DNA of 64,000 bases from an uncultured Desulfospira sp. (GCA_963663165.1 OY760175.1:5408001-5472000); one strand, 5' to 3'; counted from the first letter of the stretch, positions 20,075-58,303 are shown. Numbers and translations: made by a program. The notes: generated by a model not told the origin, from the sequence alone.

Positions 20075-21352
20075 TTATGGTTCCGGCTGCATCAGAAAAC
20101 CTTCCTGATTCAATGCCTGAACAATGGCTTGAAGGCTTTTAAAAAATGCCTCGCCCTTTTTCATAATATCTGTTTTTGCCTCTTTTTTGCTGGTCCAGGC
20201 ATGGTCAAACCCGTTTCGGTACGCGATCAGGTCTTGGGCGATTTCTTTCATTTTTATGATAATTTTTTTTTCCGCCATTGCCCGGAAAAGCGGTAGAATC
20301 GTTTGATGATGCGCCAGGCGCTCACCGCGAAAGTTCCACTCATTTTCATTTACCTGAAGCATATTAATGAACACATCTGCCTTTTGCCGTTGATCTCTCC
20401 TTTCCTTGTTGGTTATTCCCATATTTTCTTTCATCCGGATAAGCCCAAAAGACCCCAGCATCTCCCGCATCACCGTATAGGCCTGCATGAACAGCTTGTG
20501 TTCAAGGAGCAGCCGGACGATTTCCAACTGGATTTTGAAATAATCAAGGTCATACCGGCCGGAAAATGTTTTTTCAAAAACCAGGGAGACGAATTTTTCC
20601 TTGACCAGGTCGAACAGAATTTTGCCGGTCACACCGGCGTCATTTTCTTTTTGCCGGACAATGTCCAGTGCCCTGGATGCTTTCTGGGACACATTGTGGA
20701 TATCCACATTCTTCAATGCACCGGTAAGGTCTTGGAAGGCACAGATCAATTCCGGATCATTAAATTCATCGAGCTTGCCGGCTGCCTCATTTTCAGCCAC
20801 CACCGCCAATTTCCCCGGGTCGGCATCTTCAACCAGACGGGACACGGCATCGGTCCATTCATTGATCACGTAAAAATCTTTCATGTCAATAATGGGCGAC
20901 AGCTCTTTATTGCTCTCATAGGCCCCGTAATACACGGCTTTAAGCCGGACGCTCTTGGCTTTTTGCAAAAAATTCAGGGCCGTGGAAAAAACAATGGGAA
21001 TGATTCTGTATCCATGGGTCATATCAACGTACAGCTCATCCCCATGGTCGATATGACTGAGGATCTCCTCAAACCAGGACCATTGATCTTCAGGGTTGAG
21101 TTCTTCGGTTATGTCAATTTCCCGGACGTCATTAATCCCGATTTTTGAAAGTTCCTGTTGTAAACTCAGATAGTGCTTTTTCCGGGATGTGCTTGTCATG
21201 ACCAGGAAAATTTGATCGAAAAATCCCGGGCCGGCCAATTGAAGCTCAGCAAACTGGACATATGGGGATGGATCGGCTTTTTGGCCGTTAATATGGTAAA
21301 CAGCAGAATCATATTTGCCTGCCCCTAAAAAACTGATGTATATGCGCCTCAT
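20075..21352 (-). CDS. csx1: Csx1/TM1812-family CARF-HEPN ribonuclease
   Basis: ISFLGAGKY, DMTHGYRIIP and YYGAYE in the CARF region; C-terminal RNGFDH (RxxxxH). Confidence 0.9.
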   Translation of the reverse strand: MRRIYISFLGAGKYDSAVYHINGQKADPSPYVQFAELQLAGPGFFDQIFLVMTSTSRKKHYLSLQQELSKIGINDVREIDITEELNPEDQWSWFEEILSHIDHGDELYVDMTHGYRIIPIVFSTALNFLQKAKSVRLKAVYYGAYESNKELSPIIDMKDFYVINEWTDAVSRLVEDADPGKLAVVAENEAAGKLDEFNDPELICAFQDLTGALKNVDIHNVSQKASRALDIVRQKENDAGVTGKILFDLVKEKFVSLVFEKTFSGRYDLDYFKIQLEIVRLLLEHKLFMQAYTVMREMLGSFGLIRMKENMGITNKERRDQRQKADVFINMLQVNENEWNFRGERLAHHQTILPLFRAMAEKKIIIKMKEIAQDLIAYRNGFDHAWTSKKEAKTDIMKKGEAFFKSLQAIVQALNQEGFLMQPEP

Positions 21353-21388
21353 ATTTTTCTCCTGATATCATTAACGTTTTAAATCACA

Positions 21389-23491
21389 TTATCCGTAAGA
21401 AAACGGGAAAACCCTGTCATGGTTTTCTCTGACATACCTTAAGGCCTCTGGGAAAGGCCGGTCAAACAGAAAGTAGAAATGGTCCGGGTTCAACGCAGAA
21501 GCTGCCGGTTTGATCTGTTTTTCCCATTGGGAAAGGCCGGATAAAAAGGGTTGTTCCGGGGGCAGATCCGGCACAAAGGCCAGGGGCTTGAGGGCCATGA
21601 TTTCAATGGTCGGCCCCTGCCCGGTATTCAGGCAGACCCCCAGGCTTTTTTCAAAAAGCTGCCTGGCCGTTCCCCGGTCTTCCTTTATTAAGGCGGTCCG
21701 GCCCAGGTTAAAGAAAACAAGCTGCCAGGGGTGCTGAGTCTTAAATTGTTCAAAGGCATGGGACACCAGGGGATGATACCATTCATCAAGGCCCGGTAAA
21801 TTGCCCCGGGCCGCGAACCGGCAGAGCATGGAAATCTGCCATGGGGTAAGGGCATGAATGCTGTCCGGGCCCCGGCCGTCAAGGCAGGTTTCAAGGCAGG
21901 CATCGGCCCCGGCCATATCCTTTGCATTGAGCCGGGCCGTGCCAAGGTAGTCGTACTGGCGAATCCACTGATTTTTAAGTTCTGGCGAAAGGGGCTCGCC
22001 AAGGGCCTGCCGGGCCTTTACCGACAGGGTTTCAGTTTCCCGAATAGCATCCGGGCCGCAAAAGGCGAAATTTTGAACCAGGGTTCCGTATACCCGGCCA
22101 AGGGCAAGATCGGTCATGCAGCCAAAGGCCTGCTGGACAGCCTGCCGGCGTTCCATAAATTCAAGGAGCCGGGCCAGGGCCTTTGGCACTTTGGGTGAAA
22201 ATTCATACCGGTTGTGGGCCGCCACCAGGGCGTGGTTGAAAAAGTCAGCGGCAAGGTTGATATCCAGCCCCATGACCGGGTCTATAAATGCATTCCCCGT
22301 ATTCTCCCATTCCGTTGCCTGTCCGATTTTTCCTGAATGGTTGGCCAGGCTCAGATTGGCCGTACACCAGACCAGGCAGGCCATGGGCATGGCCCCGGGC
22401 AGGCCTTTGGGAGAAAATTCTGCCAGGGCCGCTGCCCTTTCAACCTCAAATTCTTCCACCATCAGGGCAAACTTGCGGACAAATCGTCCAAACAGGTCCG
22501 GGCAGCTGAATATCCGGCCCAGCAGGTCCTGAACCGCTTGCTTTTCGTGAAAGATCCAGTCTGCGGGCAGGCTGTCCATCTTATCAATAAAGGATGCCGG
22601 GTCCTGAAGGGCCCGGGAAAAAACAAAGAGCAGGTTGTCCTGCCGGCCGGAGTATAGGGAGGCCACGGTAACGCTTTCGGCAAAACAGGACACCGGCACA
22701 AGCCCTCTGGCGTTATGTCCGGGCCTTGAGCCTGCCGGAATCAGCAGGCATTTGAACCTGGAAGAGAGCGCGGCCCGGATTTTCCGGTCGAGCATGCCAA
22801 CGGGCAGCACATCCCCTGAATCATTCAGGCCGCCTGTAGCGATCAGGTCTCCGGAAACCGGAATTTTATTCAAAAGGCTTTTAAAACCAATGCCCATACT
22901 TAAGCCCCCGGAGCGTCCTTTAAATTGGATCTGGCCGTTGGCCGGGGCCATGGGAAACAGAACAAACCGTGAATTTCCAGGGTCAGGCCCCGGGCGGCGG
23001 GCCAGGCGCTCTGCCGTTTTTATCGTTTCAATGAAGGGGGTGTCCATGGCCTTTTGTGCCCATTTCGGAATATGGACCGGCCCGGCTTCTCCAGGCACAA
23101 GGCCTGCCACAAACCAGGCGACCCTCGCCATGCCGCTGCCGGCCCCAAGTACGGGAACCCTGGCCCAGTCTCCTTGCACCAACCGGTTGAAGTCAACGCC
23201 TGAATATGTTTCAGGCCGGGTGTTTTCGGCTATAAAATCCCTGACCCATGCCGGCTTTGAAGGGCCAAGCAAATATACGGCCCCCAGGGCGCGGTGGAAT
23301 AATTCCAGGAGAACCGGATCATCCATATAAGAGAGGATATCATGATAGGCGGCCTTAAAATCATCAGGACCGGTTCCGCTCCAGGGAACACAGGCCAGAT
23401 CCGATATCATGGCCTGGAAGTGGCCCATGGCGTTTCGGGCGGCAAAGCACAGGTCCTTAATGGTATTCACATGGCTCACGGCAAATCCCAT
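21389..23491 (-). CDS. Lon-type (S16) protease domain fused to a C-terminal helical/TPR-like region
   Basis: KGRSGGL...IATGGLNDSGDVLPVGMLDRKIRAA. Ser and Lys are 43 residues apart, as in the Lon dyad. No ATPase motifs. Confidence 0.8.
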   Translation of the reverse strand: MGFAVSHVNTIKDLCFAARNAMGHFQAMISDLACVPWSGTGPDDFKAAYHDILSYMDDPVLLELFHRALGAVYLLGPSKPAWVRDFIAENTRPETYSGVDFNRLVQGDWARVPVLGAGSGMARVAWFVAGLVPGEAGPVHIPKWAQKAMDTPFIETIKTAERLARRPGPDPGNSRFVLFPMAPANGQIQFKGRSGGLSMGIGFKSLLNKIPVSGDLIATGGLNDSGDVLPVGMLDRKIRAALSSRFKCLLIPAGSRPGHNARGLVPVSCFAESVTVASLYSGRQDNLLFVFSRALQDPASFIDKMDSLPADWIFHEKQAVQDLLGRIFSCPDLFGRFVRKFALMVEEFEVERAAALAEFSPKGLPGAMPMACLVWCTANLSLANHSGKIGQATEWENTGNAFIDPVMGLDINLAADFFNHALVAAHNRYEFSPKVPKALARLLEFMERRQAVQQAFGCMTDLALGRVYGTLVQNFAFCGPDAIRETETLSVKARQALGEPLSPELKNQWIRQYDYLGTARLNAKDMAGADACLETCLDGRGPDSIHALTPWQISMLCRFAARGNLPGLDEWYHPLVSHAFEQFKTQHPWQLVFFNLGRTALIKEDRGTARQLFEKSLGVCLNTGQGPTIEIMALKPLAFVPDLPPEQPFLSGLSQWEKQIKPAASALNPDHFYFLFDRPFPEALRYVRENHDRVFPFSYG

Positions 23492-24627
23492 CCCGTGTGG
23501 TGGACAATAAACACGGCCAGGCTTTGGCCCGGGGAAAGGGGGCGGTCAAACAGGGCCATAAACCGCTTGCCGTGTCCTTCCCATACCCATTTGCAGGCCA
23601 TGAGCAGCCGGTTGTTTTCGTCCTTTATATAGCATTGAAACGCATCTTCGGGGATGTCATCGGGCAATCCCTCGATAACGCCGTTGACCGAATAGGACGC
23701 CGGAGGTGAGGCCTCGTATTTGATGTTGCATTCAATGGGCCTGGCATCCTGCATGCCCTCCTGGTTGAAACAAAAATACCCTGCCGTGATGGTGAGCCCG
23801 TCATTCTCAGCGGCCCTCATGGGCAGGACATGGGAAGGAAAGCGCAAAAGCGCCATGCACTCTTCAACGGTCCCGGGGGGCCAGTCCCAGCCAATGCCGG
23901 TGAATTTTTCTTCAAGTTTTGCCTTAAGCGCTTCAAGGCCGATGGGGACAGGGCGCTTTTCATGTTCAGCGGCTGTGCGCCCTGGGGCCATGGCGGCAAA
24001 GGCCTGCCCGATTTTCAGCTCAAGCTCCCTGAAAAAAATTCTGGGATCATGGTCCTGCATGGGCATGGGCTTAAGGGCCCATTCCGGCAAATGGTCCGGA
24101 TCTTTGGCCATCTTAAGGGCGCTTTCAATCACCTTTGGGGCCAGGGTCCCTAATAATGGCCCCATAAAGCGCTCCGGAAGGGTGTAGATATTCCAGGTCT
24201 GAATCAAAATTTCCGAAAGGCCCTGGATCATGTTTTCCGGGGGGACCAGGTCGCCGGGACCGGCCAGGGCCGTATCGGGCCACACCTGGGCCAGGGTCAC
24301 CATGCCGCCGGGTTTGATTTCAAGAAGCGCTGCCTGGGGGGCGTTGTAATAATCATCCCCCTGCCAGAACGAGAGTTCAGGGTCAAGTATCCGCACCTGG
24401 CCGGTTTGAATCGGGGAATTCTCCGGGGAAACGGTGAAATCGGCTTCCAGTTTTTCAGACAATATTTCCCAGGCCTCTATTTCGTCTTTGAGCATTGTGG
24501 AACAAAAGGGGCAGACCGCCAGATGACGCCGGAACTGCTCTGCATGTTCGAGATTCTGTTTAACCTTTAACGGCGGACAGGTTCTCAATTGTCTGGCCAG
24601 TGCCAGTGCCTGTTTTCTGGTATACAT
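23476..24627 (-). CDS. Putative anti-sigma factor (HxxxCxxC Zn motif followed by a MazF/PemK-like segment; CalpT-like)
   Basis: RHLAVCPFC; GQVRIL..P..LLE..LAGPGDLV..IQTWN. Sits between the sigma and protease genes. Confidence 0.65.
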   Translation of the reverse strand: MYTRKQALALARQLRTCPPLKVKQNLEHAEQFRRHLAVCPFCSTMLKDEIEAWEILSEKLEADFTVSPENSPIQTGQVRILDPELSFWQGDDYYNAPQAALLEIKPGGMVTLAQVWPDTALAGPGDLVPPENMIQGLSEILIQTWNIYTLPERFMGPLLGTLAPKVIESALKMAKDPDHLPEWALKPMPMQDHDPRIFFRELELKIGQAFAAMAPGRTAAEHEKRPVPIGLEALKAKLEEKFTGIGWDWPPGTVEECMALLRFPSHVLPMRAAENDGLTITAGYFCFNQEGMQDARPIECNIKYEASPPASYSVNGVIEGLPDDIPEDAFQCYIKDENNRLLMACKWVWEGHGKRFMALFDRPLSPGQSLAVFIVHHTGWDLP

Positions 24628-24640
24628 GGATCATCCTTTC

Positions 24641-25690
24641 TTACATTTGTTCCCGGGGCGTGAGCCAGTCGTTTAAATTCCGGCACAGGCAGTCCATGAA
24701 AAAATCAAAATCCCTGCCGTCCTGGCCGTCGCCGTCATAGTCCGGCGACAGCCAGTTAAGGTCTCGCAAAAACGATTTAAGCTTTTTGTGGATCAACTTT
24801 TTCTGGTAGGAAAGGTTTGATTTCATCTTCATTAACTCGGATACGGCCTTGTGGGGCAGCCCTTTGCATTCATAATAAAAGAACAGGCGTTTTTCCCGGT
24901 CTTTTAACCGGTGAAAAAAATTACCGGCCCAGGTTGTGATCAGGCTGTTTTGGGTCTGATCCGCAGACTGGGTTCCGGGATGATGGGCCAGGGGATTAAA
25001 TTCGTCTTTATCCGTCCCGGCCATGGGGTATGAATCAACCCCGGGCTGCAGCACCACATACCGGCTCACCCAGGCTAGAAAATCCATAAGGTCGATCCGG
25101 ATACCGGGCTCACCGGTAAGCTTGGCTGAAGATGTCCAGAAATGGCGGGCCAGCCTGAGGATATTATCCCGGGTGTTCAGGGCGGTGTACTCCCCGGGCA
25201 GGTCAGGGGGAAAGCCTATGGTCATGAGATCTTCAATCATGACCAGGGTTCGCGGAAGGCCTTCAGAGCGGCTGAACAGGGTTTTTCCTCGGGGGGTGTC
25301 TTTGACTTTGAAAAATTCACCGGACTGGTTCAGGACATCCAGCACATGGCGGTAAAACAGGCGCCAGGTGTCTTTATAGATGTCCTGGCTGCCTTGTCTG
25401 CTCCTGGACAGGTCCATCATCCGGTGCCACAGGAATGTCCTGACCCGCTTCATGGCCCCTGGGCTTTTGCCCATCAGTTCGGCGGGCACGGTCTTGTCCC
25501 TGATCAGAAAAATCATCAGTTCCTGCCGGATATCATCGGGGTGGATCTGTTCCGGGGCAACGCCGTACAGGCCAAGTCTGGAAAGTTTCATTTTTTTGTG
25601 AACCGCATCAACAAGCCGGTCTACTGCATCGGCGTTTTCTTTTTTTTCAAGCCAGGCCTGGAATTTAAGTTTGAAACAGTTGTCATTCAT
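24641..25690 (-). CDS. ECF-like sigma-70 family factor with a long inter-domain insert
   Basis: Region 2-like DDIRQELMIFL...WHRMMDLSR; region 4-like LKDREKRLFFYYECKGLPHKAVSELM...KKLKSFL. Confidence 0.72.
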   Translation of the reverse strand: MNDNCFKLKFQAWLEKKENADAVDRLVDAVHKKMKLSRLGLYGVAPEQIHPDDIRQELMIFLIRDKTVPAELMGKSPGAMKRVRTFLWHRMMDLSRSRQGSQDIYKDTWRLFYRHVLDVLNQSGEFFKVKDTPRGKTLFSRSEGLPRTLVMIEDLMTIGFPPDLPGEYTALNTRDNILRLARHFWTSSAKLTGEPGIRIDLMDFLAWVSRYVVLQPGVDSYPMAGTDKDEFNPLAHHPGTQSADQTQNSLITTWAGNFFHRLKDREKRLFFYYECKGLPHKAVSELMKMKSNLSYQKKLIHKKLKSFLRDLNWLSPDYDGDGQDGRDFDFFMDCLCRNLNDWLTPREQM

Positions 25691-25755
25691 GGGTCCCCGC
25701 CGTTATCAGGTGAGTGAATTGTTTTCAATCATGGGTGCCGTTCTTTTATTACATA

Positions 25756-25785
25756 TACGGAGCCGGAAAGGAAAGTGTTAAAATC
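25756..25785 (-). promoter_or_regulatory. Putative autoregulatory ECF promoter of the sigma operon
   Basis: gattttaacactttcctttccggctccgta on - (AAC-N17-CGTA), 66 nt before the ATG. Confidence 0.65.
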
Positions 25786-26054: not shown

Positions 26055-27025
26055 TCCTCTCTAATCGAGGCAGTCTTTCTGACTTAGCAATTGAGCATCT
26101 CGAAAAAGTCATTCATGAGGTCTCAATCCTCTCTAATCGAGGCAGTCTTTCTGACCAAAATTTTATCGAAGAAAATTGGTCGGCATTTGAGGTCTCAATC
26201 CTCTCTAATCGAGGCAGTCTTTCTGACTTGAAACATAGTTATTTTGGTTGGCAAGCTGTTAAGTCTCAATCCTCTCTAATCGAGGCAGTCTTTCTGACCA
26301 GACAATGAATTTGTTCAAAGTGTGAACAAAAAAGTCTCAATCCTCTCTAATCGAGGCAGTCTTTCTGACAAATGTTAATAAAGCGGAATGGAAAGTTGTT
26401 CAGCCGTCTCAATCCTCTCTAATCGAGGCAGTCTTTCTGACTTGAATACCAGAATGAAATCAATGGATGAAAAGTACAGTCTCAATCCTCTCTAATCGAG
26501 GCAGTCTTTCTGACTGTTTATGGCGAAGACATGGTTACCGAATGCCTGAATGGTCTCAATCCTCTCTAATCGAGGCAGTCTTTCTGACCAATTTACTTGG
26601 TCTCGTGCAAAGACCTTGCTTACAGGTCTCAATCCTCTCTAATCGAGGCAGTCTTTCTGACGTGCAGGCTCGAATAATTGACTACCGCGCTATATTTAGT
26701 CTCAATCCTCTCTAATCGAGGCAGTCTTTCTGACCTACCAGCCCGACGAATTATCGGGTTATAACATGGTGTCTCAATCCTCTCTAATCGAGGCAGTCTT
26801 TCTGACTGGTTGGCACATAAACAAGAAATAACTAAAACACTAAGTCTCAATCCTCTCTAATCGAGGCAGTCTTTCTGACTAATCCATCTGTGCCCTTTGG
26901 GGCAGAATTTTCTGTGTCTCAATCCTCTCTAATCGAGGCAGTCTTTCTGACAAACAGGAGCTTGTAGTATTCAATAATTGGGTTAATGAGTCTCAATCCT
27001 CTCTAATCGAGGCAGTCTTTCTGAC
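26055..27025 (-). CRISPR. CRISPR array 2: 14 repeats (first partial) / 13 spacers
   Basis: Repeat on + is GTCTCAATCCTCTCTAATCGAGGCAGTCTTTCTGAC. Confidence 0.98.
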
Positions 27026-37571: not shown

Positions 37572-40057
37572 TCAGTTTCCACCTTTTTAATATGGGCCGG
37601 TGTGATGCATACCGTGTGTGCATCCAGGTCCGCGTCGGCCACGGCAGCCCCTTTTAGTTTTTCAATAAAACTTCTGACAAAGCGGGCATTGGCAAAATTG
37701 TTTCCCTCAATTGTGCGTATCCGTTCAAAAACCGGGATAAGCATCTCAGCTTTAAGCAGGCTAAAATCATATACGGCCCCAATGCCGGAGGTTTTCAAAA
37801 AAAAGATCTGTGCCAGTTCCTCAGCAGAATAATCCGGAAAGTCCAGAATCCGGTCAAACCGCCCTCTAAGCCCGGAATCATGGTCAAAAAGCGCTGTTAT
37901 CTTGTCAGGATACCCGGCAAAAATCAGGCAGAGCCGGCTGCGGTTGTCCTCCATGAACGGAAGAATGGTATTAAGGGCACTTTCTCCATAAGAACTGCGG
38001 TTCGGCCCCGGTGCGAGTTGATGGGCCTCGTCAATGAACAGCACCCCGTCCAGGGACTGATTCAGAATCCGGTTTGTTCTGTTTTCGGTTTCTCCCTGGT
38101 ATTGTCCTATTAGCTGCGAGGCTGTATGGGCATTGAGCTTTGCAGAATTTAAAAGTCCCATGCGAAAGAACTGCTTTGCCATCTGCCTTGCTGCAATGGT
38201 TTTGCCTGTACCCGGGCTTCCCTGGAAAATGTAGTGGCCGGGGACAGTTTTTTCTTTTTCCAGGCGGGCCTGCTTCTCAAAATTCACCAGGAACCCTTTT
38301 ATATTTCCAAGTCCGACAAGGGTGTTGATGTCGTCCTCCTGCTGCCGGCGAGCTTCAAACAGCTTTGGCATTTCAAAATGTGATGTGGACAGGGTTGGGG
38401 AAGAATTTGCCCTGGCGTTCTGCAGGGCTGTTTCAATCTGATTGATTACCACACCGGCATTGCCGAAATGATTTGCACCAAACAGTTCCCTTTGATCCAG
38501 CAGATTGGTGCAGAACAGCGTGACTTTTTCCTTAAGGTCGGCTTCCGGATGCAAGGGACTGTTATTGAGGTGCTGCATCATGATTTCAGCCAGCTCCTGT
38601 GCGGAATAATCAGGCAGGTCAATATATGATATCCGCCTGGCACATCCGGGATTTGTATTCAGCATGGCCCGTGTTTCATCGGGATAACCTGCAAAGATAA
38701 CCATGAACCTGCCTTGAAAATCGGACATGGCCTTTACCAGTTCGGCCAGGGCTTCAGTGCCGAAACTGTCCCGGTCATCATTGACCAGTTCATAGGCCTC
38801 ATCAATAAAAAGTACACCTCCCAACGCTTTTTCCACCAGGGCTCTGGTTTTTCCGGCTGACTGGCCCATGTATCCGGCCACAAGTTTTTCACGGGTGGCC
38901 TCAACCATGTGACCGGATTCCAGGAGTCCCTCTTCCTTTAAAATCTTTCCTATGAGCCTTGCCACTGTTGTTTTTCCGGTGCCGGGATTTCCTAACAGCG
39001 CCAGATGGGGGATGGCCGGCAGGGTTCCGGCCTTGATCCGCCGGAACCGGTCAGGGGTCAGCGGCTGATCCGATTCAAATTCAGGTGTTTTCTTTTCAAT
39101 CCCCCGGACCAGCCGGGTGACGGTCTCTTTAACCCGGGTCAGGCCTGTCATGGAACGAAGCTGGTCAAAGGCTGCGGGCATGCCTGATTGAAGTCCGTAA
39201 ACCTGTCGGAGGTGATCGAAAAACGCTTCTTCTTCACCCATGTACTGCACCAGATTTTTTATGGACTCTCCACGATGGCGCATGGCACCGGCAACGGAGG
39301 GGGACAGGCTGTCAAAATCATTGAAGGCCGGGACACATCCTTTTTCCAGTCCGTGAAGTGCCATGGCCCTGAAAACTTCATCCCGGCCGGCCGTTTCCAC
39401 CCGGACCACCCGGGCCGATCCCGAGGCTGCCCTTTTGCCGGGTTCCAGAGAAAAAACAAAATCCAGGCCAAGGCGCATGAACCGTCTTGCCACGGAAGCC
39501 TCATCATCTCCGTCCACCCAGATCCAGATATTTCTGCAGGCACCGGGCAGGGAAAAAATACTGTTTCTGAGCAACCCCTGGATCTGTATTCCAATATCCG
39601 ATGCCGGGGGCAGCTTTTCAAACAGGGCACCGTCATAAACCACAAAGGCCAGGTGCCGCCCGGGATCAGAAAGATGGGCTGTCATAAACTGGGCAATCTC
39701 ATTAATGTCCCCGTCATAGGTATACCTTAACCGCCCCCGGGGAGTGCTTGGGCTTTTGGACGGGGGGGATTTCATGGTAAGGCCCATGGGGGCGTGCTTG
39801 AGTTTATCCAGACCCTTGGCCGGGCGATGCGTTTTCTTTTCTTTGCGGGATCTGAGGTGGTCAAGGCTATGGGCGTCAAAATAGTAAAGTCCCCTGGCAT
39901 CCAGAAAGGCCACTGCTTTATACCCCAATTCACAGGTGAGATACCAGTAAAGGTAATGGTCAAGCTGGATACGGGAATTGTCCTTTAAGATAAACTCATC
40001 CCGGACATGTCCGAGAATAAGAAACAGGCGGTCCGCGTAGTTTTTTAACGCTTTCAT
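37562..40057 (-). CDS. Tandem AAA+ ATPase (CbbX/SpoVK/EccA-like)
   Basis: GNPGTGKT/LFIDEAY and GSPGTGKT/LFIDEAH, IFAGYP twice, PDYS twice. Confidence 0.92.
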   Translation of the reverse strand: MKALKNYADRLFLILGHVRDEFILKDNSRIQLDHYLYWYLTCELGYKAVAFLDARGLYYFDAHSLDHLRSRKEKKTHRPAKGLDKLKHAPMGLTMKSPPSKSPSTPRGRLRYTYDGDINEIAQFMTAHLSDPGRHLAFVVYDGALFEKLPPASDIGIQIQGLLRNSIFSLPGACRNIWIWVDGDDEASVARRFMRLGLDFVFSLEPGKRAASGSARVVRVETAGRDEVFRAMALHGLEKGCVPAFNDFDSLSPSVAGAMRHRGESIKNLVQYMGEEEAFFDHLRQVYGLQSGMPAAFDQLRSMTGLTRVKETVTRLVRGIEKKTPEFESDQPLTPDRFRRIKAGTLPAIPHLALLGNPGTGKTTVARLIGKILKEEGLLESGHMVEATREKLVAGYMGQSAGKTRALVEKALGGVLFIDEAYELVNDDRDSFGTEALAELVKAMSDFQGRFMVIFAGYPDETRAMLNTNPGCARRISYIDLPDYSAQELAEIMMQHLNNSPLHPEADLKEKVTLFCTNLLDQRELFGANHFGNAGVVINQIETALQNARANSSPTLSTSHFEMPKLFEARRQQEDDINTLVGLGNIKGFLVNFEKQARLEKEKTVPGHYIFQGSPGTGKTIAARQMAKQFFRMGLLNSAKLNAHTASQLIGQYQGETENRTNRILNQSLDGVLFIDEAHQLAPGPNRSSYGESALNTILPFMEDNRSRLCLIFAGYPDKITALFDHDSGLRGRFDRILDFPDYSAEELAQIFFLKTSGIGAVYDFSLLKAEMLIPVFERIRTIEGNNFANARFVRSFIEKLKGAAVADADLDAHTVCITPAHIKKVETEWT

Positions 40058-43339: not shown

Positions 43340-44452
43340 TTAAATAAGCTTTAGCCGGACATTACCATTGCGTCCAAACCAGGTATGCCCTGGATAATGG
43401 AAAACCCTTGGATCTGCGGGATCCCATACCAGAACTTTTCTCAGTTGATCCATTGCCGGGCAATGATCCCTAACGAATTGTCTGATTCTATACTCAATTT
43501 CTCTGGCTAAGCGGTCGCAGGAAAGCGTGGCGTTTCCATTTCCATTATTGCTGTCCAGTGGCGCAAGTGTAAGGAACCGTGAGGCCGGGTCCGCAAAAAT
43601 GGTTAATGATTCTATTCTGATATGGCAGCTTCCCATCCCCATGGGTTTAGCATTGCCGATTTTATGCCTGAGCGGCCCGTTCAGCCGAATCCGATTTTCT
43701 TCCCCCCCAATGGTGACCTGAACATCTTCCTCCAAAATTAATATATAAATAAGGAGATCAAGTTCTTCATCCCGTAAATTGGAAAAGGTTATATCAAATT
43801 CAAAGCGATGCCCCGGTGTGAGCGCGGGCACGGTCCATGCGCGATCTGCCAAATTATTAGGGATGCCGGGAAAGTTAGTGTTGATCCCAGGCTGGTGAAA
43901 ATAAAATTTCCTGCACCGCCCATCAAAATCCCCTGTATGCGGCGAGATATAAAAAGAGCGATGAGTGCTTTTAGGACCGTTGAGCAGGACTTGATAGTTC
44001 TGAGTCTGTGCGTTCTCCGCCTGGATAACGGCATCACTGATACTGACCTTGCCTGTATGCACCTTTGCATTTGCGCGCTGTTCCATCATGCCGAACATTC
44101 TGCAGGCCACACAAAGGCTGGTGACTTGATCGCAGCTTTTGAAGTCATTGTGGCAGTTTCGTCCGTTTTTATCCGTGACAAAACAGCCCCCCCCCACAAC
44201 TTCGGCAAGGGAGCGGAGCATTCCTTTTAAAGAGCTGCCCGGAATAATATGTTTGCGATCTCTGGTTAAAAATGTTCTGGGGTTGCCTTCATTGTTTTTT
44301 GCAATAAATAAAGGGGTTAAATTTTCCAAGGTGCAGGTCAGTTTCCCGCTTTTTCCTTGGAATTTTTCATGGGTGACCGGCGGCATTCTGTTTATAACCT
44401 CCCGGACCGGAACCATCCTGTACGGATTCCAAAAGTGTTCTCCCTGGGGCAT
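43340..44452 (-). CDS. cas7: Type III-D terminal Cas7-group RAMP (TIGR03986-like)
   Basis: FWNPYRMVP, IPGSSLKGMLRS, RKFYFH, IGNAKPMGMGS. Confidence 0.85.
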   Translation of the reverse strand: MPQGEHFWNPYRMVPVREVINRMPPVTHEKFQGKSGKLTCTLENLTPLFIAKNNEGNPRTFLTRDRKHIIPGSSLKGMLRSLAEVVGGGCFVTDKNGRNCHNDFKSCDQVTSLCVACRMFGMMEQRANAKVHTGKVSISDAVIQAENAQTQNYQVLLNGPKSTHRSFYISPHTGDFDGRCRKFYFHQPGINTNFPGIPNNLADRAWTVPALTPGHRFEFDITFSNLRDEELDLLIYILILEEDVQVTIGGEENRIRLNGPLRHKIGNAKPMGMGSCHIRIESLTIFADPASRFLTLAPLDSNNGNGNATLSCDRLAREIEYRIRQFVRDHCPAMDQLRKVLVWDPADPRVFHYPGHTWFGRNGNVRLKLI

Positions 44453-44964
44453 CAGACTCCTCCTTTGGTTTCTTTTAGCGAATGATACCGGCTGAACCTG
44501 GCATCACCCGATGCATCAATCCATTTTTCAACCACCAGTTTAATGCGTCCTCTGGGATATTGGTTTTCTGTGACAGGATATTTAAATTCCACAGGAACTT
44601 GTTGTTCGATCCACCTGTTTTCCTTCTCCGTAAGAACACCCCATAAAAAAAATTCACCTGTCTCCCGCTCAAGCTGGTCAAGTTCTTTTGAACAATTCTC
44701 CAGCCCCTCGGGCGGAAGTGATTCTCCAAGATAGACCAGGCGAAGTTTTTCTCCCATACGGCGCCACTGCAGTTCACTTTCCGGTGAAAAGATTCGGCCC
44801 TGGGCACTTTTTTCCAACACAATTTTTTCCAGAGCGCTTTTTTCAAATATAAACCGGTCGGGATAGAACACAATTGATACGCAGGGTTCTTTACGCTTCA
44901 CCCGCCTGACAAATGCCCGGGCTTCTTCCTCCACAAGGTCTTTTGAAAAAAGATAGGCCATCAC
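44452..44964 (-). CDS. csx19: Csx19-like subunit
   Basis: GRIFSPESELQWRR, FLWG and C-terminal RFSRY; position in a III-D operon. Confidence 0.7.
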   Translation of the reverse strand: MMAYLFSKDLVEEEARAFVRRVKRKEPCVSIVFYPDRFIFEKSALEKIVLEKSAQGRIFSPESELQWRRMGEKLRLVYLGESLPPEGLENCSKELDQLERETGEFFLWGVLTEKENRWIEQQVPVEFKYPVTENQYPRGRIKLVVEKWIDASGDARFSRYHSLKETKGGV

Positions 44965-45953
44965 GCCCTCCTTTCATTTAATTGCTCCAGAGCAACGGGC
45001 CATTCACTTGTTTGAATCATTTGCACCAGATCATCCACGGCTAGGGCAAGATGGTCTTTCCAGCCCCTGGTGATATCGTATTCGTTTCTAAGACTCAGTC
45101 CCAGTTTAGAGCTTGAGGAAAGAGATGGGCCGTTTTGACCGGTTTCCTGAAAAAATCCGTATGACTGACAAATATCCTCAGAGCAAGCAGCACCCAGGCC
45201 GGTTAATGAGGAGAGCCGGCGGTGGTAGGAGGTGATTTGAAACCGGGTAATCCGGGCTTTGAACCTTCCTAAGCCTTTGCTCTTTCCGAAACCGATACGA
45301 AGTTTCTCCTCCTCCATTTCCTGCAATATCAGTCCAAGGAGACCTAACTGCCACCGTTCAAAATTACGAATCTCTATGGATGTGGAAAATTCCCCCCGGG
45401 TCAGCACTTCAAAGTCATACAGTGCCCCGGGAACAGTTCCCCCGGTAAACCGGTCAATGGCCACGCCGTTTCGAACCTCAAAGACAGGAGATCCTACCGC
45501 CCTGAATTCATCAGAGAGGCCGGCATCTGAAACAGCGCATCTTCCGATAAATTCATGGGATCCAAACATACGGCAGACAGGGCATGAAACCCGGTAAGCT
45601 GTGGCTGACGGGACACGCTCCAGACCATGATCTTTTTTATATTTTTCCAGCATCAAACCGCATGACGCCTGGCGCTGCTCCCGGGGATCCCTGCTGCCGG
45701 GTTTTAAATAGGGCAGACACACTGGAACCGGATCCTCTTTCAACGTCCTGCAGATTTTTTCCGCATACGATCGAATCATTCCTTTTAATGAGCTTCCCGG
45801 GATAAAAGGTTCTTCTTTGCCGCCGTGCCGGTGGGTACGGACAAACGCCATGTCGACCCCGGCCACAGTTGCCTGGCCGGACTTAATTAATAACGGGTCG
45901 ACAGGGATAATGGTCAACTCTATGAGGGCATTGTTGATCAATTGTTTGAGCAT
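44961..45953 (-). CDS. cas7: Cas7-group RAMP (Csm3/Csx7-like)
   Basis: PFIPGSSLKGMIRS, CPVCRMFGS, RNGVAIDRFTG, IGFGKSKGLG. Confidence 0.92.
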   Translation of the reverse strand: MLKQLINNALIELTIIPVDPLLIKSGQATVAGVDMAFVRTHRHGGKEEPFIPGSSLKGMIRSYAEKICRTLKEDPVPVCLPYLKPGSRDPREQRQASCGLMLEKYKKDHGLERVPSATAYRVSCPVCRMFGSHEFIGRCAVSDAGLSDEFRAVGSPVFEVRNGVAIDRFTGGTVPGALYDFEVLTRGEFSTSIEIRNFERWQLGLLGLILQEMEEEKLRIGFGKSKGLGRFKARITRFQITSYHRRLSSLTGLGAACSEDICQSYGFFQETGQNGPSLSSSSKLGLSLRNEYDITRGWKDHLALAVDDLVQMIQTSEWPVALEQLNERRA

Positions 45954-45954
45954 A

Positions 45955-46761
45955 TCAGTCTCCTTGTTTCATGGTGGCGGCCAGTTTCTCTTCCAGACAT
46001 TTTCCTAAAAGGTCGCGGGCCGGTGTCATCTGTTTTTCCACCAGGTATTTGATCAGCTCCGCTGGATTGGTATAATCCACGGATTCTACTTCTATGTCCG
46101 TCAACTGTACCTTTCCAAGCCCTCGGGATGAAAATCCCCCCAATTTAAAACCGTTTTCCCACTCCGCCAAAGCGGCACCAACCAGGGCAAGTTCATCATT
46201 CTCCGGATTTTCGATCTCAATGGTAATCTGAAAGGAGGCGCCGGCCGGCACCACTTCGTAGTCAAATTTGGCTTTGGGGCGGGCAGTTTCCGTATCCCGG
46301 TCAATGCAGACGCCGTCACGGATGCAAATGGCAGTCCCCCCTTCAACGGGAATACCGTCACTGAAAAAGATGCGGGATGCCATCATGGGGGAACCAAATA
46401 GTTTACATACATCGCAGGTGTGGGTGTCCAGCCAGTCCAATTGCTCTTTCCCGGCCCGGAGCGCCTTAAAGGCCTCCTGATTTTTTCGTCGAAAGGGCTC
46501 ATCACTGACACAATCTACTTTGGAAAGGGAGGTATCCAGCAAACATGCGGTCATGTCCAGATGGGGCGCCAGACGCTCGGAAAATGCCCTGAAGTTTCCT
46601 TTCAGGGTCGATCCCGGCAGGACAGGGTTTCCATCCGGATCAAGCAGAACCCCCATATCCGTGGACAACGCCCCCTCTTGTCCCGATCCGATATGAAAGG
46701 CCGTGTGAAACGTCAATTTTGCCGTAATTTTTACTTTTTGAAAATATGTATTATAAGTCAT
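45955..46761 (-). CDS. cas7: Cas7-group RAMP (Csx7/Csm3-like)
   Basis: HIGSG, LPGSTLKG, CDVCKLFGS, RDGVCIDRDT, LGGFSSRGLG. Confidence 0.92.
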   Translation of the reverse strand: MTYNTYFQKVKITAKLTFHTAFHIGSGQEGALSTDMGVLLDPDGNPVLPGSTLKGNFRAFSERLAPHLDMTACLLDTSLSKVDCVSDEPFRRKNQEAFKALRAGKEQLDWLDTHTCDVCKLFGSPMMASRIFFSDGIPVEGGTAICIRDGVCIDRDTETARPKAKFDYEVVPAGASFQITIEIENPENDELALVGAALAEWENGFKLGGFSSRGLGKVQLTDIEVESVDYTNPAELIKYLVEKQMTPARDLLGKCLEEKLAATMKQGD

Positions 46762-46762
46762 G

Positions 46763-47278
46763 TTATTCTCTCCTTTCTGGGGGGCTGACGCTGTTGAGTG
46801 CGGCGCAATAGGCATAATGCGAGGTAAGGTGTTCGCAATATACAGACAGGACTTTGGAAATGGCCGAATCAATTTTGTTTTTATTCATTTTTTTGATTTT
46901 ATTTCTGAGCGGTTTGTCATCCCCTGCGGATATTTCGTCTTCAAGAAAAGAGGCCAATTGGTCTTTAACCGCCATGTACAGGCAGTCGCGGCTCTCTATT
47001 GTGCGCGATATCTGGTTGGACATAAAATTCCAAAACACCTTTTTTTTCTCATTTGAATTTTTTTGCCTTTGATGATCAATCAGTCTGGTAAGGGCATTTT
47101 TCCCCCCTGACTGAATAGCGGCGGGAATGCTGTGAAGCTGGGAAGTCGTTATAAAATCTTTGGCTCCGTAATTGCCGCATAGTTCTTCCACAGCTTCACA
47201 GGCGTGGTCCCGCAGGGTTTTATCCAGAAACAGGTGAAATGCGTCTGAGTTTAGATATGCTTCATATGCCTTGTCCAT
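46763..47278 (-). CDS. Small alpha-helical protein, putative Cas11-like small subunit
   Basis: 171 aa helical, ITTSQLHSI motif; position within the effector operon. Confidence 0.55.
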   Translation of the reverse strand: MDKAYEAYLNSDAFHLFLDKTLRDHACEAVEELCGNYGAKDFITTSQLHSIPAAIQSGGKNALTRLIDHQRQKNSNEKKKVFWNFMSNQISRTIESRDCLYMAVKDQLASFLEDEISAGDDKPLRNKIKKMNKNKIDSAISKVLSVYCEHLTSHYAYCAALNSVSPPERRE

Positions 47279-47681
47279 GATGCCCGGCCTCCTCCTGGTT
47301 TAGCTGCAATTTATATAAGCAGTGAAAAATAACTTGCTTGCCCCATCCTCTGGCCAGTTTCATTTTGATATCAAGAACAAGGGATGGGTCCCCGCTGCCT
47401 ATCTCCTGGGCCTTGACCTCCAATGCTTCCAGTTGGCGGATCACCCCTGGTGCCACCCGGATCCATGTTGTTTTTTTGGTATCCTTTGCCGCCTGGTTTT
47501 TAATGTAATTGATAATTTCAGAAAACCGGCTGGTGGAAGTGATCAGTGTTTCAAGCCCGCGCAGTTGTGTTTTTCCCAGCCCCACCGCAGCCAGTTCATC
47601 TCCCATCTGTTTTGAATCACCATAAATTTGTTCGAGAAAGAGATCAATTTCTCTGGAGATTGTTTCATTGATGTGTGTCAT
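47262..47681 (-). CDS. Small alpha-helical protein, putative Cas11-like small subunit
   Basis: GKTQLRGL...IINYIKNQAAK; ATGA overlap with csx10. Confidence 0.6.
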   Translation of the reverse strand: MTHINETISREIDLFLEQIYGDSKQMGDELAAVGLGKTQLRGLETLITSTSRFSEIINYIKNQAAKDTKKTTWIRVAPGVIRQLEALEVKAQEIGSGDPSLVLDIKMKLARGWGKQVIFHCLYKLQLNQEEAGHHGQGI

Positions 47682-51151: not shown

Positions 51152-51175
51152 AAGACCTCCAATCTTTACTTTGAC

Positions 51176-51205
51176 TACGGAATTCAATAGGCGTCCTTTA
51201 AAATT
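51176..51205 (-). promoter_or_regulatory. Putative ECF-sigma promoter of the cas10 operon
   Basis: aattttaaaggacgcctattgaattccgta on -, 25 nt before the ATG. Confidence 0.6.
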
Positions 51206-51224
51206 ATTTTTCGAAATAAGTGAC

Positions 51225-51527
51225 TCAAAAGACAATCGAACCTTTCAAAAGGGAAATCTGCCATTCGTTAAAATCCGGCAGTTTTTCAGGGATGATGTCC
51301 AGATTTGGGACCTCAAGGTAAGTTTTTATGCAGGACGACAGGGTGCCGTCCATATCCCCGGCGTCCACACGGGCCAGGGCATGGTTAAAAAAATCCGCTA
51401 CCAGGTTGATATCCTCAAAGATCCGCTCCAGGCTGCCCGTTGCAATCAGGTTCATGGAAGTCGGCCCTGGGTCAAGGCCTTCAGGGCCTGATTCATGCCT
51501 CCCATGAAAAAGAAATTCTTCCGCCAT
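51225..51527 (-). pseudogene. Collapsed remnant paralog of the Lon-TPR protein
   Basis: NLIATGSL, DINLVADFFNHAL, ARVDAGDM and WQISLL match the 21389-23491 product in the same order. Confidence 0.7.
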
Positions 51528-51584
51528 ACAGATACCGGCTGCCGGGCTCTGTCTACCTCTATGACCGCAAATGACGGTTGGTAT

Positions 51585-58194: not shown

Positions 58195-58273
58195 TGGATT
58201 CCTCCTTCCATTCAAGGTTTTGATTCAAGGTTTTGATGCCCCCTTATTTTAATTCTTCACCTGTAACAGAATA

Positions 58274-58303
58274 TACGGAGATGATTTTTTAAATTTCAAA
58301 AAA
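58274..58303 (-). promoter_or_regulatory. Putative ECF-sigma promoter
   Basis: ttttttgaaatttaaaaaatcatctccgta on -. Confidence 0.55.

What the first reader, a model, noticed from the sequence alone, without database searches (positions are those of the whole stretch)
20075..25690. Sigma / anti-sigma / Lon-TPR protease / Csx1 operon: a candidate CRISPR protease-signalling cascade without a visible SAVED sensor
Seen: four tightly linked - strand genes. They encode an ECF-like sigma factor, a protein with HxxxCxxC plus a MazF-like segment, an ATPase-less Lon domain with an intact Ser-(43)-Lys dyad followed by about 400 aa of helical/TPR-like sequence, and a CARF-HEPN nuclease. Known: in CalpL-CalpT-CalpS a cA4-sensing SAVED-Lon cleaves an anti-sigma, and in type III-E a TPR-CHAT protease bound to the effector cleaves Csx30 to free a sigma factor. 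Inference: this looks like a hybrid, with a Lon catalytic module and a TPR-like rather than SAVED sensor. It could be activated by direct contact with the III-D complex or with cOA-bound Csx1. I do not recall this architecture being characterised.
Basis: partly seen in the sequence, partly recalled or inferred. Interest (0 to 1): 0.9.

Follow-up and report, generated by a model that had tools for sequence, protein, structure and literature searches.

The report
CRISPR-linked Lon-TPR protease sigma switch
Next to a type III CRISPR system sits a conserved, undescribed gene set (a sigma-like factor, a zinc-motif anti-sigma-like protein and a Lon protease with a TPR-type sensor) that looks like a protease-operated switch turning on the CRISPR genes themselves.

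Summary
Window 20075-25690 (- strand) holds four tightly linked genes:
- a sigma-like protein of 349 aa;
- a 383-aa protein with an invariant C..HxxxCxxC motif;
- a 700-aa ATPase-less Lon protease (S194/K237) whose C-terminal 400 aa fold as a TPR-like superhelix, not SAVED or CARF;
- a Csx1 CARF-HEPN nuclease.

The first three form a conserved cassette, often preceded by a fourth ~155-aa gene. I fetched 53 related loci, and 36 of them carry cas genes or CRISPR arrays. The cassette typically lies directly upstream of cas6-cas10 operons of subtypes III-A, III-B, III-C or III-D. Csx1 is not a conserved partner (6 of 53 loci).

Near-identical cassettes sit beside III-A and III-B effectors, which argues against Craspase-like docking on one complex.

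The main new result is a bipartite motif, TTTTTGAAAA-N14/15-GCCGTA. It recurs in cassette loci (39 hits against 2 for a mirror control), between Lon and cas6, upstream of the anti-sigma gene, and before cas1 and PrimPol genes. This suggests the sigma factor's regulon is the CRISPR locus itself.

The input signal is unresolved: it could be a Cas10 product or an independent infection cue. No description was found in print. I rate it a new variant of the CalpL-CalpT-CalpS kind. The complex prediction could not be run.

The parts
24641..25690 (-). P0004, a divergent sigma-70-family protein of 349 aa. It has a sigma2-like helical N-terminus (about 1-106), an inserted alpha/beta part (about 107-218), a disordered linker (219-240), sigma4 (243-316) and an extra C-terminal helix.
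   Evidence: Model pLDDT 88.4. VIA matches: SigL sigma4 Z 8.2, SigK sigma4 Z 7.1 at rmsd 1.5, SigR sigma2 fragment Z 5.6. Pfam Sigma70_r4_2 in 28 of 45 members and Sigma70_r4 in 20 of 45. PDB profile hits FliA and SigF region 4 at E 1e-3. 135 representative relatives.
23476..24627 (-). P0003, an anti-sigma-like protein of 383 aa. It has an N-terminal C17/H35xxxC39xxC42 zinc motif, a middle domain with the motifs LAGPGDL and WN.Y (possibly MazF-like), and an Ala-rich LP(L/M)AAA(D/E)-type site at about 268-274. A C-terminal domain of about 12 kDa follows.
   Evidence: Alignments (29 sequences; 25 sequences). MazF6 match E 0.14 at residues 99-172. zf-HC2 only at E 0.18. The gene lies directly upstream of Lon in 20 of 25 genome loci.
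21389..23491 (-). P0002, the Lon-TPR protease of 700 aa. It has an N-terminal helical domain (1-106), a Lon S16 proteolytic domain (108-282; S194, K237) and a TPR-like superhelix (287-694). The C-terminal tail FPFSY is invariant.
   Evidence: Foldseek top hit is the E. coli Lon proteolytic domain, TMt 0.76. VIA: 1rr9 Z 22.4, APPBP2 Z 19.9, MalT DT3 Z 18.7, Rap Z 17.7, and CalpL Z 13.3 over model residues 12-312. Invariant residues are listed.
20075..21352 (-). Csx1 CARF-HEPN nuclease. It is co-oriented and 36 nt downstream of Lon-TPR, but it is not a conserved member of the cassette.
25752..25783 (-). Promoter-like site TTTTAAC-N16-CCGTATATG, about 60 nt upstream of the P0004 start codon. It is shared with the orthologous positions in L001 and L002.
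37764..37798 (-). Best match in the whole 6.74-Mb genome to the cassette-linked motif (TTTTTTGAAAA-N15-GCCGTATAT). It lies about 227 nt upstream of the coiled-coil/PP2C/vWA/Ser-Thr kinase/HK/RR/PIN-like operon (37571 down to 27537).
   Evidence: PWM trained only on other loci gives score 27.4, rank 1 genome-wide.
58270..58300 (-). Promoter-like site upstream of a 180-aa ORF (57673-58215) with a PARP/ART-like H-Y signature.
   Evidence: Pfam PARP E 4.3e-5, below the cut-off.
59537..59567 (-). Promoter-like site upstream of a 57-aa ORF, a 113-aa membrane ORF (58930-59271) and a cREC_REC receiver ORF (58314-58826).
   Evidence: cREC_REC E 1.9e-8.
62420..62456 (-). Weaker promoter-like site (PWM score 18.6) between a CRISPR array and the start of RT-cas1.
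43340..51235 (-). Type III-D effector operon: an HD-less Cas10 with intact GGDD (49577-51235), Csx10, Csx7-type RAMPs, Csx19 and a TIGR03986 RAMP.
   Evidence: The GGDD motif is read.
51225..51622 (-). Decayed second cassette just upstream of cas10. It holds the middle of the small-protein gene, then in-frame scraps of a Lon-TPR gene (LIATGSL, INLVADFFNHAL, ARVDAGDMDG, NEWQISLL).
   Evidence: tblastn, frames, and the search of the own genome, E 1.6e-6.
54259..54375 (-). N-terminal piece of the same small-protein gene. An IS (transposase 51585-53423 and an HTH ORF 53390-54223) cuts it off from the rest.
26120..26806 (.). CRISPR array immediately upstream of the cassette. The other arrays are at 11726-13458, 42042-42516 and 62866-63406, with a shared 36-nt repeat.

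Best explanation
The cassette is a protease-gated sigma switch dedicated to type III CRISPR-Cas. Nothing here was tested biochemically.

Core mechanism (about 0.65 likely):
- The 383-aa ZAS-motif protein holds the sigma-like P0004 inactive.
- On activation, the Lon-TPR protease (S194/K237) cuts it, probably at the conserved Ala-rich LP(L/M)AAA(D/E) site near residue 270. This would leave an ...AA C-terminus that housekeeping proteases degrade.
- The freed sigma factor directs RNA polymerase to promoters of the type TTTTTGAAAA-N14/15-GCCGTA.
- These promoters lie in front of cas6-cas10 effector operons, of the anti-sigma and Lon genes, of adaptation genes (cas1, PrimPol, TPR) and, in this genome, of further island genes.

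Input (the weakest step):
- I slightly favour a diffusible product of the GGDD-bearing Cas10 proteins, bound by the TPR-like domain.
- That would make the module a CalpL-like effector that feeds back positively on CRISPR interference and adaptation.
- The confidence of 0.4 given here is for the whole statement, this input included.

Shown: the domain folds, the catalytic dyad, gene linkage, motif recurrence and motif placement.
Inferred: binding, cleavage, the cleavage site, sigma activity and the ligand.
For: Folds and motifs:
- Lon dyad invariant in 31 of 31 sequences down to 19% identity.
- The model's N-terminal domain plus Lon superposes on CalpL residues 1-258 at Z 13.3.
- The ZAS motif is kept in 24 of 25 sequences and A272 of the Ala-rich site in 23 of 25.
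- CalpT is cut at LAA|A, exposing a degron (preprint 10.1101/2024.05.08.593097, passages).
- Sigma4 is supported by sequence (28 of 45) and by fold.

Linkage:
- The order sigma, ZAS, Lon is conserved.
- cas genes or arrays are present in 17 of 25 genome loci and 19 of 28 non-duplicate metagenome loci.

Promoter-like motif:
- The strict motif gives 39 hits in 580,698 bp of 53 loci, against 2 for its mirror image. 31 of the 39 are on the Lon strand.
- Placement: 14 between Lon and cas6 or an array, 4 before a divergent cas6, 10 just upstream of the ZAS gene, 6 before cmr1, cas1, PrimPol, TPR, the small gene or an unnamed position near the end of L018, and 5 inside genes or unclear (with the gene maps).
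- Control: upstream of cas6-family genes elsewhere in the order, the strict motif occurs in 2 of 5 loci with Lon-TPR next door and in 0 of 15 evaluable loci without.
- A PWM trained on other loci ranks window 37798 first in the whole genome.
- The window-type variant has 14 genomic sites. Four are in the window and one is 75 nt upstream of the cas6 of a second III-D-like operon just outside it.

For a diffusible Cas10 signal:
- Cassettes 84-92% identical sit beside III-A and III-B effectors.
- GGDD is present in 4 of the 5 full-length neighbouring Cas10 proteins examined (L005, L007, L017, L020; absent in L021; a sixth, in L012, is cut by the contig end) and in both Cas10 proteins of this genome.
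- Polar residues of the TPR-like domain (Q473, R558, H587, Q590, N595) are invariant in 31 of 31 sequences.
Against: - No CARF, SAVED or other known nucleotide-sensor fold is present. The best structural relatives of the C-terminal domain bind peptides, degrons or a sugar (APPBP2, Rap, NprR, AimR, MalT).
- The Cas10c next to the cassette in L021 lacks GGDD.
- If the sigma factor is needed for cas expression, a Cas10-made trigger needs basal expression first.
- Evidence for sigma2 is weak (Z 5-6), and Foldseek gave no hit at E <= 1e-3 for P0004.
- zf-HC2 and MazF similarities of P0003 are not significant.
- The strict motif has a high genomic background: 102 hits in 6.74 Mb against 46 for the mirror image. 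It is absent upstream of cas6 in 3 of 5 Lon-adjacent control loci.
- The window's own sites deviate in the -35 part. Two of them helped shape my first loose pattern.
- The loci are related to one another, so the counts are not independent.
Confidence: 0.4

Rival explanations
1. The cascade and output are the same, but the trigger does not come from Cas10. The TPR-like domain senses an infection or stress cue, such as a phage protein, a peptide or a host metabolite. The module is then the dedicated inducer of the CRISPR locus, acting upstream of immunity as the ECF pair DdvS-DdvA does for a CBASS/III-B island.
For: - TPR relatives of the sensor domain bind peptides, proteins or a sugar.
- The promoter-like motif lies in front of cas operons and adaptation genes.
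- The cassette sits at the 5' end of the effector operons.
- One neighbouring Cas10c lacks GGDD.
- There is a precedent for a sigma/anti-sigma pair controlling type III CRISPR (PMC11506125 and PMC6061681; only search listings and abstract starts were seen).
Against: - The linkage is strict to type III rather than to defence islands in general (36 of 53 loci).
- Invariant polar residues in the sensor across 19-100% identity fit a single conserved ligand better than diverse phage proteins.
- The closest known relative by architecture, CalpL, is a second-messenger effector.
Confidence: 0.3
2. Craspase-like mechanism: the TPR-like domain docks on the type III effector complex (or on cOA-bound Csx1), and target-RNA binding switches the protease on directly. 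This is what the first reader proposed.
For: - The TPR-CHAT protease Csx29 works this way with Cas7-11 (PMC10028731; abstract start seen).
- The cassette is immediately adjacent to effector genes.
Against: - Cassettes 84% (Lon), 88% (ZAS) and 92% (sigma) identical neighbour III-A and III-B complexes whose Cas10 proteins share no significant similarity.
- The family occurs with III-A, III-B, III-C and III-D loci.
- Csx1 is adjacent in only 6 of 53 other loci.
- In this window the intact cassette lies 18 kb from the III-D operon.
Confidence: 0.08
3. It is not a sigma switch. P0004 would be an HTH regulator or scaffold, the recurring motif would be bound by another factor or be a generic AT-rich promoter feature, and Lon-TPR would degrade other targets, such as the small MazF-like protein or phage proteins.
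For: - The sigma2 evidence is weak.
- P0004 is 349 aa with a roughly 110-aa insertion unlike ECF sigmas.
- Lon-TPR relatives exist with other upstream partners (L019, L052, L054), or with none visible (L055, L057, L058).
- The motif background in the genome is not negligible.
Against: - The strict three-gene order and the co-conservation of the genes.
- A sigma4 domain by both sequence and fold.
- The family consensus F.NH..D..R looks like ECF region 2; this comparison is recalled, not tested.
- The bipartite motif has fixed spacing (28 of 33 training sites share one spacer length).
- The motif's positions are consistent.
Confidence: 0.12

Closest known systems
CalpL-CalpT-CalpS (type III CRISPR SAVED-Lon protease, anti-sigma, ECF-like sigma)
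   Same: - A type III-linked three-gene unit.
- An ATPase-less Lon with a Ser-Lys dyad preceded by a helical N-domain (structural match to CalpL 1-258, Z 13.3).
- A substrate with a possible MazF-like middle domain, an Ala-rich site and a C-terminal piece of about 11-12 kDa.
- A sigma-family partner.
- The logic of cleavage followed by degron-driven removal (CalpT details from passages of 10.1101/2024.05.08.593097).
   Different: - There is no SAVED domain. A roughly 400-aa TPR-like superhelix takes its place.
- The Lon domain is closer in sequence to classical Lon (E 4.5e-11) than to CalpL (E 0.04).
- The substrate carries an extra N-terminal ZAS zinc motif, and DUF2080 was not detected.
- The sigma-like protein is about 350 aa with an insertion.
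- There is often a fourth small gene.
- A candidate regulon (cas operons) can be named here. The passages I read on CalpS name none.
Type III-E Craspase (Cas7-11 with TPR-CHAT Csx29, Csx30, Csx31, RpoE)
   Same: A TPR-bearing protease, a cleavable inhibitor linked to a sigma factor, and a small extra protein, all in a type III locus.
   Different: - The protease is a Lon Ser-Lys enzyme, not a CHAT caspase.
- Nothing suggests docking on an effector.
- No sequence relation was detected in any search here.
DdvS-DdvA ECF sigma/anti-sigma control of a CBASS/type III-B island in Myxococcus xanthus
   Same: A dedicated sigma/anti-sigma pair whose output is transcription of CRISPR-Cas and defence genes.
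   Different: - DdvA is a transmembrane anti-sigma. Here the anti-sigma-like protein is soluble and is paired with a cytoplasmic Lon-TPR protease.
- I saw only the abstract starts of these papers.
TPR-type ligand sensors (MalT domain III, RRNPP receptors Rap/NprR/AimR, APPBP2)
   Same: The fold of residues about 290-690 (Z 15-20).
   Different: None of them is fused to a protease. Helical-repeat matches at these Z values show a shared fold, not a shared function or ligand.

Membership tests
CalpL (SAVED-Lon CRISPR protease) | Lon S16 proteolytic domain with a Ser-Lys dyad and no AAA+ module | tested here: met
   Pfam Lon_C. PDB profile E 4.5e-11. S194 and K237 invariant in 31 of 31 sequences. 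VIA 1rr9 Z 22.4.
CalpL (SAVED-Lon CRISPR protease) | C-terminal SAVED domain that binds cA4 | tested here: not met
   Residues 287-694 are all helical at high pLDDT. They match TPR-type domains. The CalpL match covers only model residues 12-312.
CalpL (SAVED-Lon CRISPR protease) | N-terminal helical domain that docks the substrate's C-terminal domain | tested here: inconclusive
   The model superposes on CalpL 1-258 at Z 13.3, rmsd 5.1, with 213 residues aligned.
CalpT (cleavable anti-sigma) | MazF-like domain that binds the sigma factor | tested here: inconclusive
   Only a weak profile match to MazF6, E 0.14, residues 99-172.
CalpT (cleavable anti-sigma) | DUF2080 C-terminal domain | tested here: inconclusive
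   No Pfam match at E <= 0.5 in 29 of 29 members. The fold was not examined.
CalpT (cleavable anti-sigma) | Cleavage in an Ala-rich LAAA-type site that exposes a degron | not testable with these tools
   A conserved LP(L/M)AAA(D/E)-type motif lies at about 268-274, with A272 in 23 of 25 sequences. Cleavage itself is inferred.
Sigma-70 / ECF sigma factors (CalpS-like) | Region 4 (-35 binding HTH) | tested here: met
   Sigma70_r4_2 in 28 of 45 and Sigma70_r4 in 20 of 45 members. ECF sigma4 structures at Z 6.9-8.2 and rmsd 1.5-4.1.
Sigma-70 / ECF sigma factors (CalpS-like) | Region 2 (core binding and -10 recognition) | tested here: inconclusive
   Residues 1-106 match SigR and ShbA sigma2 at Z 5.6-5.8 only. 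There is no Pfam Sigma70_r2 hit. The consensus F.NH..D..R resembles region 2 from recall.
ZAS (zinc-binding anti-sigma) domain | HxxxCxxC with a fourth upstream ligand | tested here: met
   C17, H35, C39 and C42 are invariant in 29 of 29 sequences and kept in 24 of 25. The definition of the motif is recalled.
ZAS (zinc-binding anti-sigma) domain | Match to the Pfam zf-HC2 model / anti-sigma domain fold | tested here: inconclusive
   zf-HC2 at E 0.18 in 1 of 29 members. The fold was not modelled.
Craspase protease Csx29 (TPR-CHAT) | CHAT caspase-like protease domain | tested here: not met
   The protease domain is of the Lon type.

The most novel reading that the evidence does not exclude
The TPR-like domain is a new class of receptor for a Cas10-made nucleotide, unrelated to CARF or SAVED. 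The released sigma factor then drives an infection-triggered positive feedback. This feedback would switch on type III interference genes, spacer-acquisition genes (cas1, RT-cas1, PrimPol) and extra toxic or defence modules from a private promoter type. It would be the first defined regulon of a CRISPR-associated sigma factor.
Probability: 0.3. Interest if true: 0.9.

Novelty: new variant of a known kind. Interest (0 to 1): 0.8.

Why it matters
For the known CRISPR protease-sigma systems, the passages I read name no genes that the released sigma factor switches on. Here a private promoter-like motif points to the cas operons, the adaptation genes and neighbouring defence genes. That makes the output directly testable.

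The module also lacks any known cyclic-oligoadenylate sensor. It therefore either reveals a new sensor fold for type III signalling or a new way of inducing CRISPR immunity on infection.

The protease, substrate and sigma factor together form a compact switch that could be reused as a synthetic sensor-to-transcription device.

Tried and rejected
No sigma/anti-sigma or protease/substrate co-fold was obtained.
- The ESM Atlas gave only unnamed clusters for P0003. For the small protein it gave a weak PemK/MazF-like lead only: feature score 0.89 and TM 0.49-0.57.
- Foldseek against the PDB gave no hit at E <= 1e-3 for P0004.
- PDB sequence searches with single proteins gave nothing for P0003, P0004 or P0001.
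- A search with the TPR-like region alone found 26 proteins. Most are 670-736 aa (two are shorter, 511 and 615 aa), those with a precomputed Pfam hit carry a Lon-type domain, and no other fusion partner was seen. The idea of a portable sensor fused to other effectors therefore found no support at that sensitivity.
- No RNA holder was listed among the sequencing runs, and read laying was not used.
- The search of earlier findings by place and by sequence returned nothing.
- My first loose -35 pattern was shaped partly by two window sites. I replaced it with a pattern taken from three orthologous promoters and with a PWM trained only on other loci.
- The phylum-wide search with the whole-protein profile mostly returned housekeeping Lon. 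About 19 of 401 genomes, G000 included, have matches at E <= 1e-27, and two of those (G306, G191) match only the N-terminal and Lon part.
Full report
**What is there**

The window is a CRISPR island on the - strand. It holds:
- four arrays with one 36-nt repeat (11726-13458, 26120-26806, 42042-42516, 62866-63406);
- an adaptation block of Cas1, a CRISPR-type PrimPol and a TPR-S protein (13661-17759);
- a HipA-like kinase;
- the four genes of the finding (20075-25690);
- a long operon of signalling-type genes (27537-41767);
- a type III-D effector operon (43340-51235);
- an RT-Cas1 fusion (59783-62086).

The four ORFs are spaced by a 13-nt gap, a 16-nt overlap and a 36-nt gap.

**The four proteins**

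P0001 is a full-length Csx1/Csm6-type CARF-HEPN protein (PADLOC E 9e-162; TIGR02221).

P0002 has a Lon S16 domain (Pfam Lon_C; family profile against PDB Lon domains E 4.5e-11).
- S194 and K237 align to the catalytic dyad and are invariant in 31 of 31 relatives down to 19% identity.
- An AlphaFold model from 12 sequences (pLDDT 87, pTM 0.66) shows a helical N-domain (1-106), the Lon domain (108-282) and an all-helical region (287-694).
- An exhaustive structural alignment gives E. coli Lon Z 22.4 for residues 108-282.
- For residues about 290-690 it gives APPBP2 Z 19.9, MalT domain III Z 18.7, phage Rap Z 17.7, and also LGN, NprR and AimR.
- CalpL matches at Z 13.3, but only over model residues 12-312 against chain residues 1-258.
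- So the C-terminus is not SAVED or CARF.

P0003 has no significant family match.
- It carries C17, H35, C39 and C42 as invariant residues (29 of 29; 24 of 25 in a broader set).
- A weak MazF6 match covers residues 99-172 (E 0.14).

P0004 was modelled from 45 sequences (pLDDT 88.4).
- It has a C-terminal domain matching ECF sigma4 structures (SigL Z 8.2; SigK Z 7.1 at rmsd 1.5; SigW; sigmaE region 4).
- Its N-terminal helical part matches sigma2 fragments only at Z 5.6-5.8.
- Pfam region-4 models hit 28 and 20 of 45 family members.

**Conservation and context**

A scan of one genome per species gave 25 loci, 24 from Desulfobacterota by their record titles and one titled only 'bacterium' (L024). 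A metagenome scan gave 29 more, one of which duplicates a genome locus.

The order sigma-like, ZAS-motif protein, Lon-TPR is kept wherever upstream DNA is present.
- ZAS lies upstream of Lon in 20 of 25 genome loci.
- The exceptions are contig ends, one truncated gene (L011) and L019, which has other partners.

A fourth gene of about 155 aa (motifs W.KNFFF.G, THPVF, CPCSS) precedes the sigma gene in 12 genome loci and 11 metagenome loci. It has no Pfam family and only a weak MazF/PemK-like lead.

cas genes or arrays lie within the fetched DNA in 17 of 25 and 19 of 28 loci. Most of the rest are contigs of 2-7 kb. L003, L004, L014, L037, L041 and L060 have 10 kb or more without a detected cas gene.

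The usual layout is small gene, sigma, ZAS, Lon-TPR, cas6, cas10 and the rest of a III-A or III-B operon. One locus has a III-C Cas10c and this window has III-D.

Csx1 is adjacent in only 6 of 53 loci.

In a sample of 401 genomes of the phylum (G000 included), about 19 carry a match at E <= 1e-27, and two of them (G306, G191) match only the N-terminal and Lon part.

**A decayed second copy**

Just upstream of the III-D cas10, the window holds the N-terminus of a small-protein gene (54259-54375). An IS cuts it. Its continuation follows at 51452-51622, and after that come in-frame scraps of a Lon-TPR gene (51225-51584). The canonical position next to the effector genes was therefore once occupied here too.

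The III-D Cas10 lacks HD but keeps GGDD.

**How the input might work**

L005 and L007 have cassettes 84% (Lon), 88% (ZAS) and 92% (sigma) identical. They neighbour a III-A Cas10a and a III-B Cas10b with no significant similarity to each other. That argues against docking on one particular complex. It favours a portable signal or a signal independent of the complex.

The TPR-like domain keeps Q473, R558, H587, P588, Q590, N595 and the C-terminal tail F695-P696-x-x-Y699 in 31 of 31 sequences. This fits one conserved ligand or an autoinhibitory tail.

Against a Cas10 product:
- no known nucleotide-sensor fold is present;
- the structural relatives bind peptides or a sugar;
- the Cas10c in L021 lacks GGDD.

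**Substrate**

In CalpT, a MazF-like domain binds CalpS, a C-terminal DUF2080 domain binds the CalpL N-domain, and cleavage at LAA|A exposes a degron (passages of 10.1101/2024.05.08.593097).

P0003 relatives share an Ala-rich LP(L/M)AAA(D/E)-type motif at about 268-274, with A272 in 23 of 25 sequences. A C-terminal piece of about 110 aa follows. I infer that this is the cleavage site. It was not tested.

**Output**

Upstream of P0004 and of its orthologous cassettes in L001 and L002 lies TTT(T/G)AA(C/A)-N16-CCGTAT.

Across more distant loci a sharper motif, TTTTTGAAAA-N14/15-GCCGTA, recurs.
- The strict pattern gives 39 hits in 580,698 bp of 53 loci, against 2 for its mirror image. 31 of the 39 are on the Lon strand.
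- 14 lie between Lon and cas6 (in L018, before an array).
- 4 lie before a divergent cas6.
- 10 lie at the 3' end of the sigma gene, just upstream of the ZAS gene.
- 6 lie before other genes: cmr1 (L016), cas1 and PrimPol (L018), TPR (L008), the small gene (L002), and one near the end of L018.
- 5 lie inside genes or are unclear.

As a control I looked at cas6-family genes elsewhere in the order. The strict motif lies upstream in 2 of 5 loci with Lon-TPR next door and in 0 of 15 evaluable loci without. Three further loci had too little upstream DNA.

The genomic background is not negligible: 102 hits in 6.74 Mb against 46 for the mirror image.

A PWM trained only on other loci ranks window position 37798 first in the whole genome (score 27.4). 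That site is about 227 nt upstream of the coiled-coil/PP2C/vWA/kinase operon.

The window-type pattern has 14 genomic sites.
- Four are in the window: 25783, 37799, 58300 and 59567.
- One is 75 nt upstream of the cas6 that heads a second III-D-like operon just to the right of the window. Its Cas10 has GGDD.
- A weaker site precedes RT-cas1.

I read this as the promoter type of the cassette's sigma factor. The CRISPR locus would be its regulon. This is an inference from placement and co-occurrence.

**What is known**

Full-text searches and passages of the surveys of type III accessory genes turned up no Lon-TPR, ZAS, sigma cassette. The surveys were PMC11229360, PMC6546367, 10.1101/270033 and PMC10910872. 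Their supplementary tables were not read and may list the family under a cluster number.

Earlier notes of this scan describe similar cassettes in other genomes. One of them found only occasional CRISPR linkage. For the subfamily studied here the linkage is the rule.

**Verdict**

This is a real, conserved, type III-associated module. It works most like CalpL-T-S but fails the defining SAVED test. It has an added zinc motif, an unusual sigma-like protein, a fourth gene and a nameable candidate regulon.

The sensor's ligand and every biochemical step remain to be shown. The complex prediction that might have tested sigma/anti-sigma binding was not available.

Noticed in passing
window 51225-51622 and 54259-54375, with the IS at 51585-54223: A second, decayed copy of the cassette lies directly upstream of the III-D cas10. 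The small-protein gene is split by an IS256-like transposase plus an HTH ORF, and scraps of a Lon-TPR gene are fused in frame.
   Followed up: partly
L062 (genome 5472001-5486000, just right of the window), 1099-11313 on the - strand: A second III-D-like operon holds cas6, a 409-aa ORF, a Cas10 with GGDD, RAMPs, TIGR04423, a TIGR03986 RAMP and Csx20. A promoter-like site lies 75 nt upstream of cas6.
   Followed up: partly
window 27537-41767 (- strand): A long operon lies between two CRISPR arrays. It encodes a tandem AAA+ protein (CbbX/EccA-like, 831 aa), a coiled-coil protein, a PP2C phosphatase, a vWA protein, a Ser/Thr kinase (789 aa), a histidine kinase, a receiver protein and a PIN-like protein, plus a radical-SAM activase-like gene. 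The best genome-wide match to the cassette-linked motif sits inside it at 37798.
   Followed up: partly
window 57673-58215 (- strand): A 180-aa ORF has a hydrophobic N-terminus and a PARP/ART-like H..GF..G.G.Y signature (Pfam PARP E 4.3e-5, below the cut-off). A promoter-like site precedes it.
   Followed up: partly
window 58314-59473 (- strand): A cREC_REC receiver-domain ORF (E 1.9e-8), a 113-aa membrane ORF and a basic 57-aa ORF lie downstream of another promoter-like site (59537-59567).
   Followed up: no
window 13661-17759 (- strand): Cas1, a CRISPR-associated PrimPol (NF040561 E 3e-135; Pfam AEP-TOTE) and a TPR protein with a TPR-S domain (PADLOC PDLC01172 E 3e-185) form an adaptation block. 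The block recurs next to the cassette in L001, L002, L018 and L039. TPR with PrimPol but no Cas1 in the fetched DNA recurs in L008, L011, L057 and L058, and TPR alone in L055.
   Followed up: no
window 18077-20048 (- strand): A HipA-like kinase (HipA_C E 2e-49) and an unassigned 103-aa ORF lie between the adaptation block and Csx1.
   Followed up: no
window 5083-5628 (- strand): A truncated cas6 lies among IS elements at the left end of the island. It is 83% identical to residues 1-162 of the cas6 of the second III-D operon.
   Followed up: no
L019, L052, L054; L055, L057, L058: More distant Lon-TPR relatives (about 25% identity) show other layouts. In L019 and L052, upstream genes of 227 and 496 aa replace sigma and ZAS. 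In L054, a relative of the 496-aa gene lies downstream of Lon. In L055, L057 and L058, Lon-TPR follows a divergent TPR(-PrimPol) block with no room for partners. The protease may therefore have other substrates.
   Followed up: no
window 42042-42516: This CRISPR array shows a 219-bp period with 100% identity over 2.2 copies, which means a block of three repeat-spacer units is duplicated.
   Followed up: no
window 54658-57162 (- strand): A VirD4/TraD-like coupling ATPase (834 aa) lies inside the CRISPR island, next to the IS-disrupted region.
   Followed up: no
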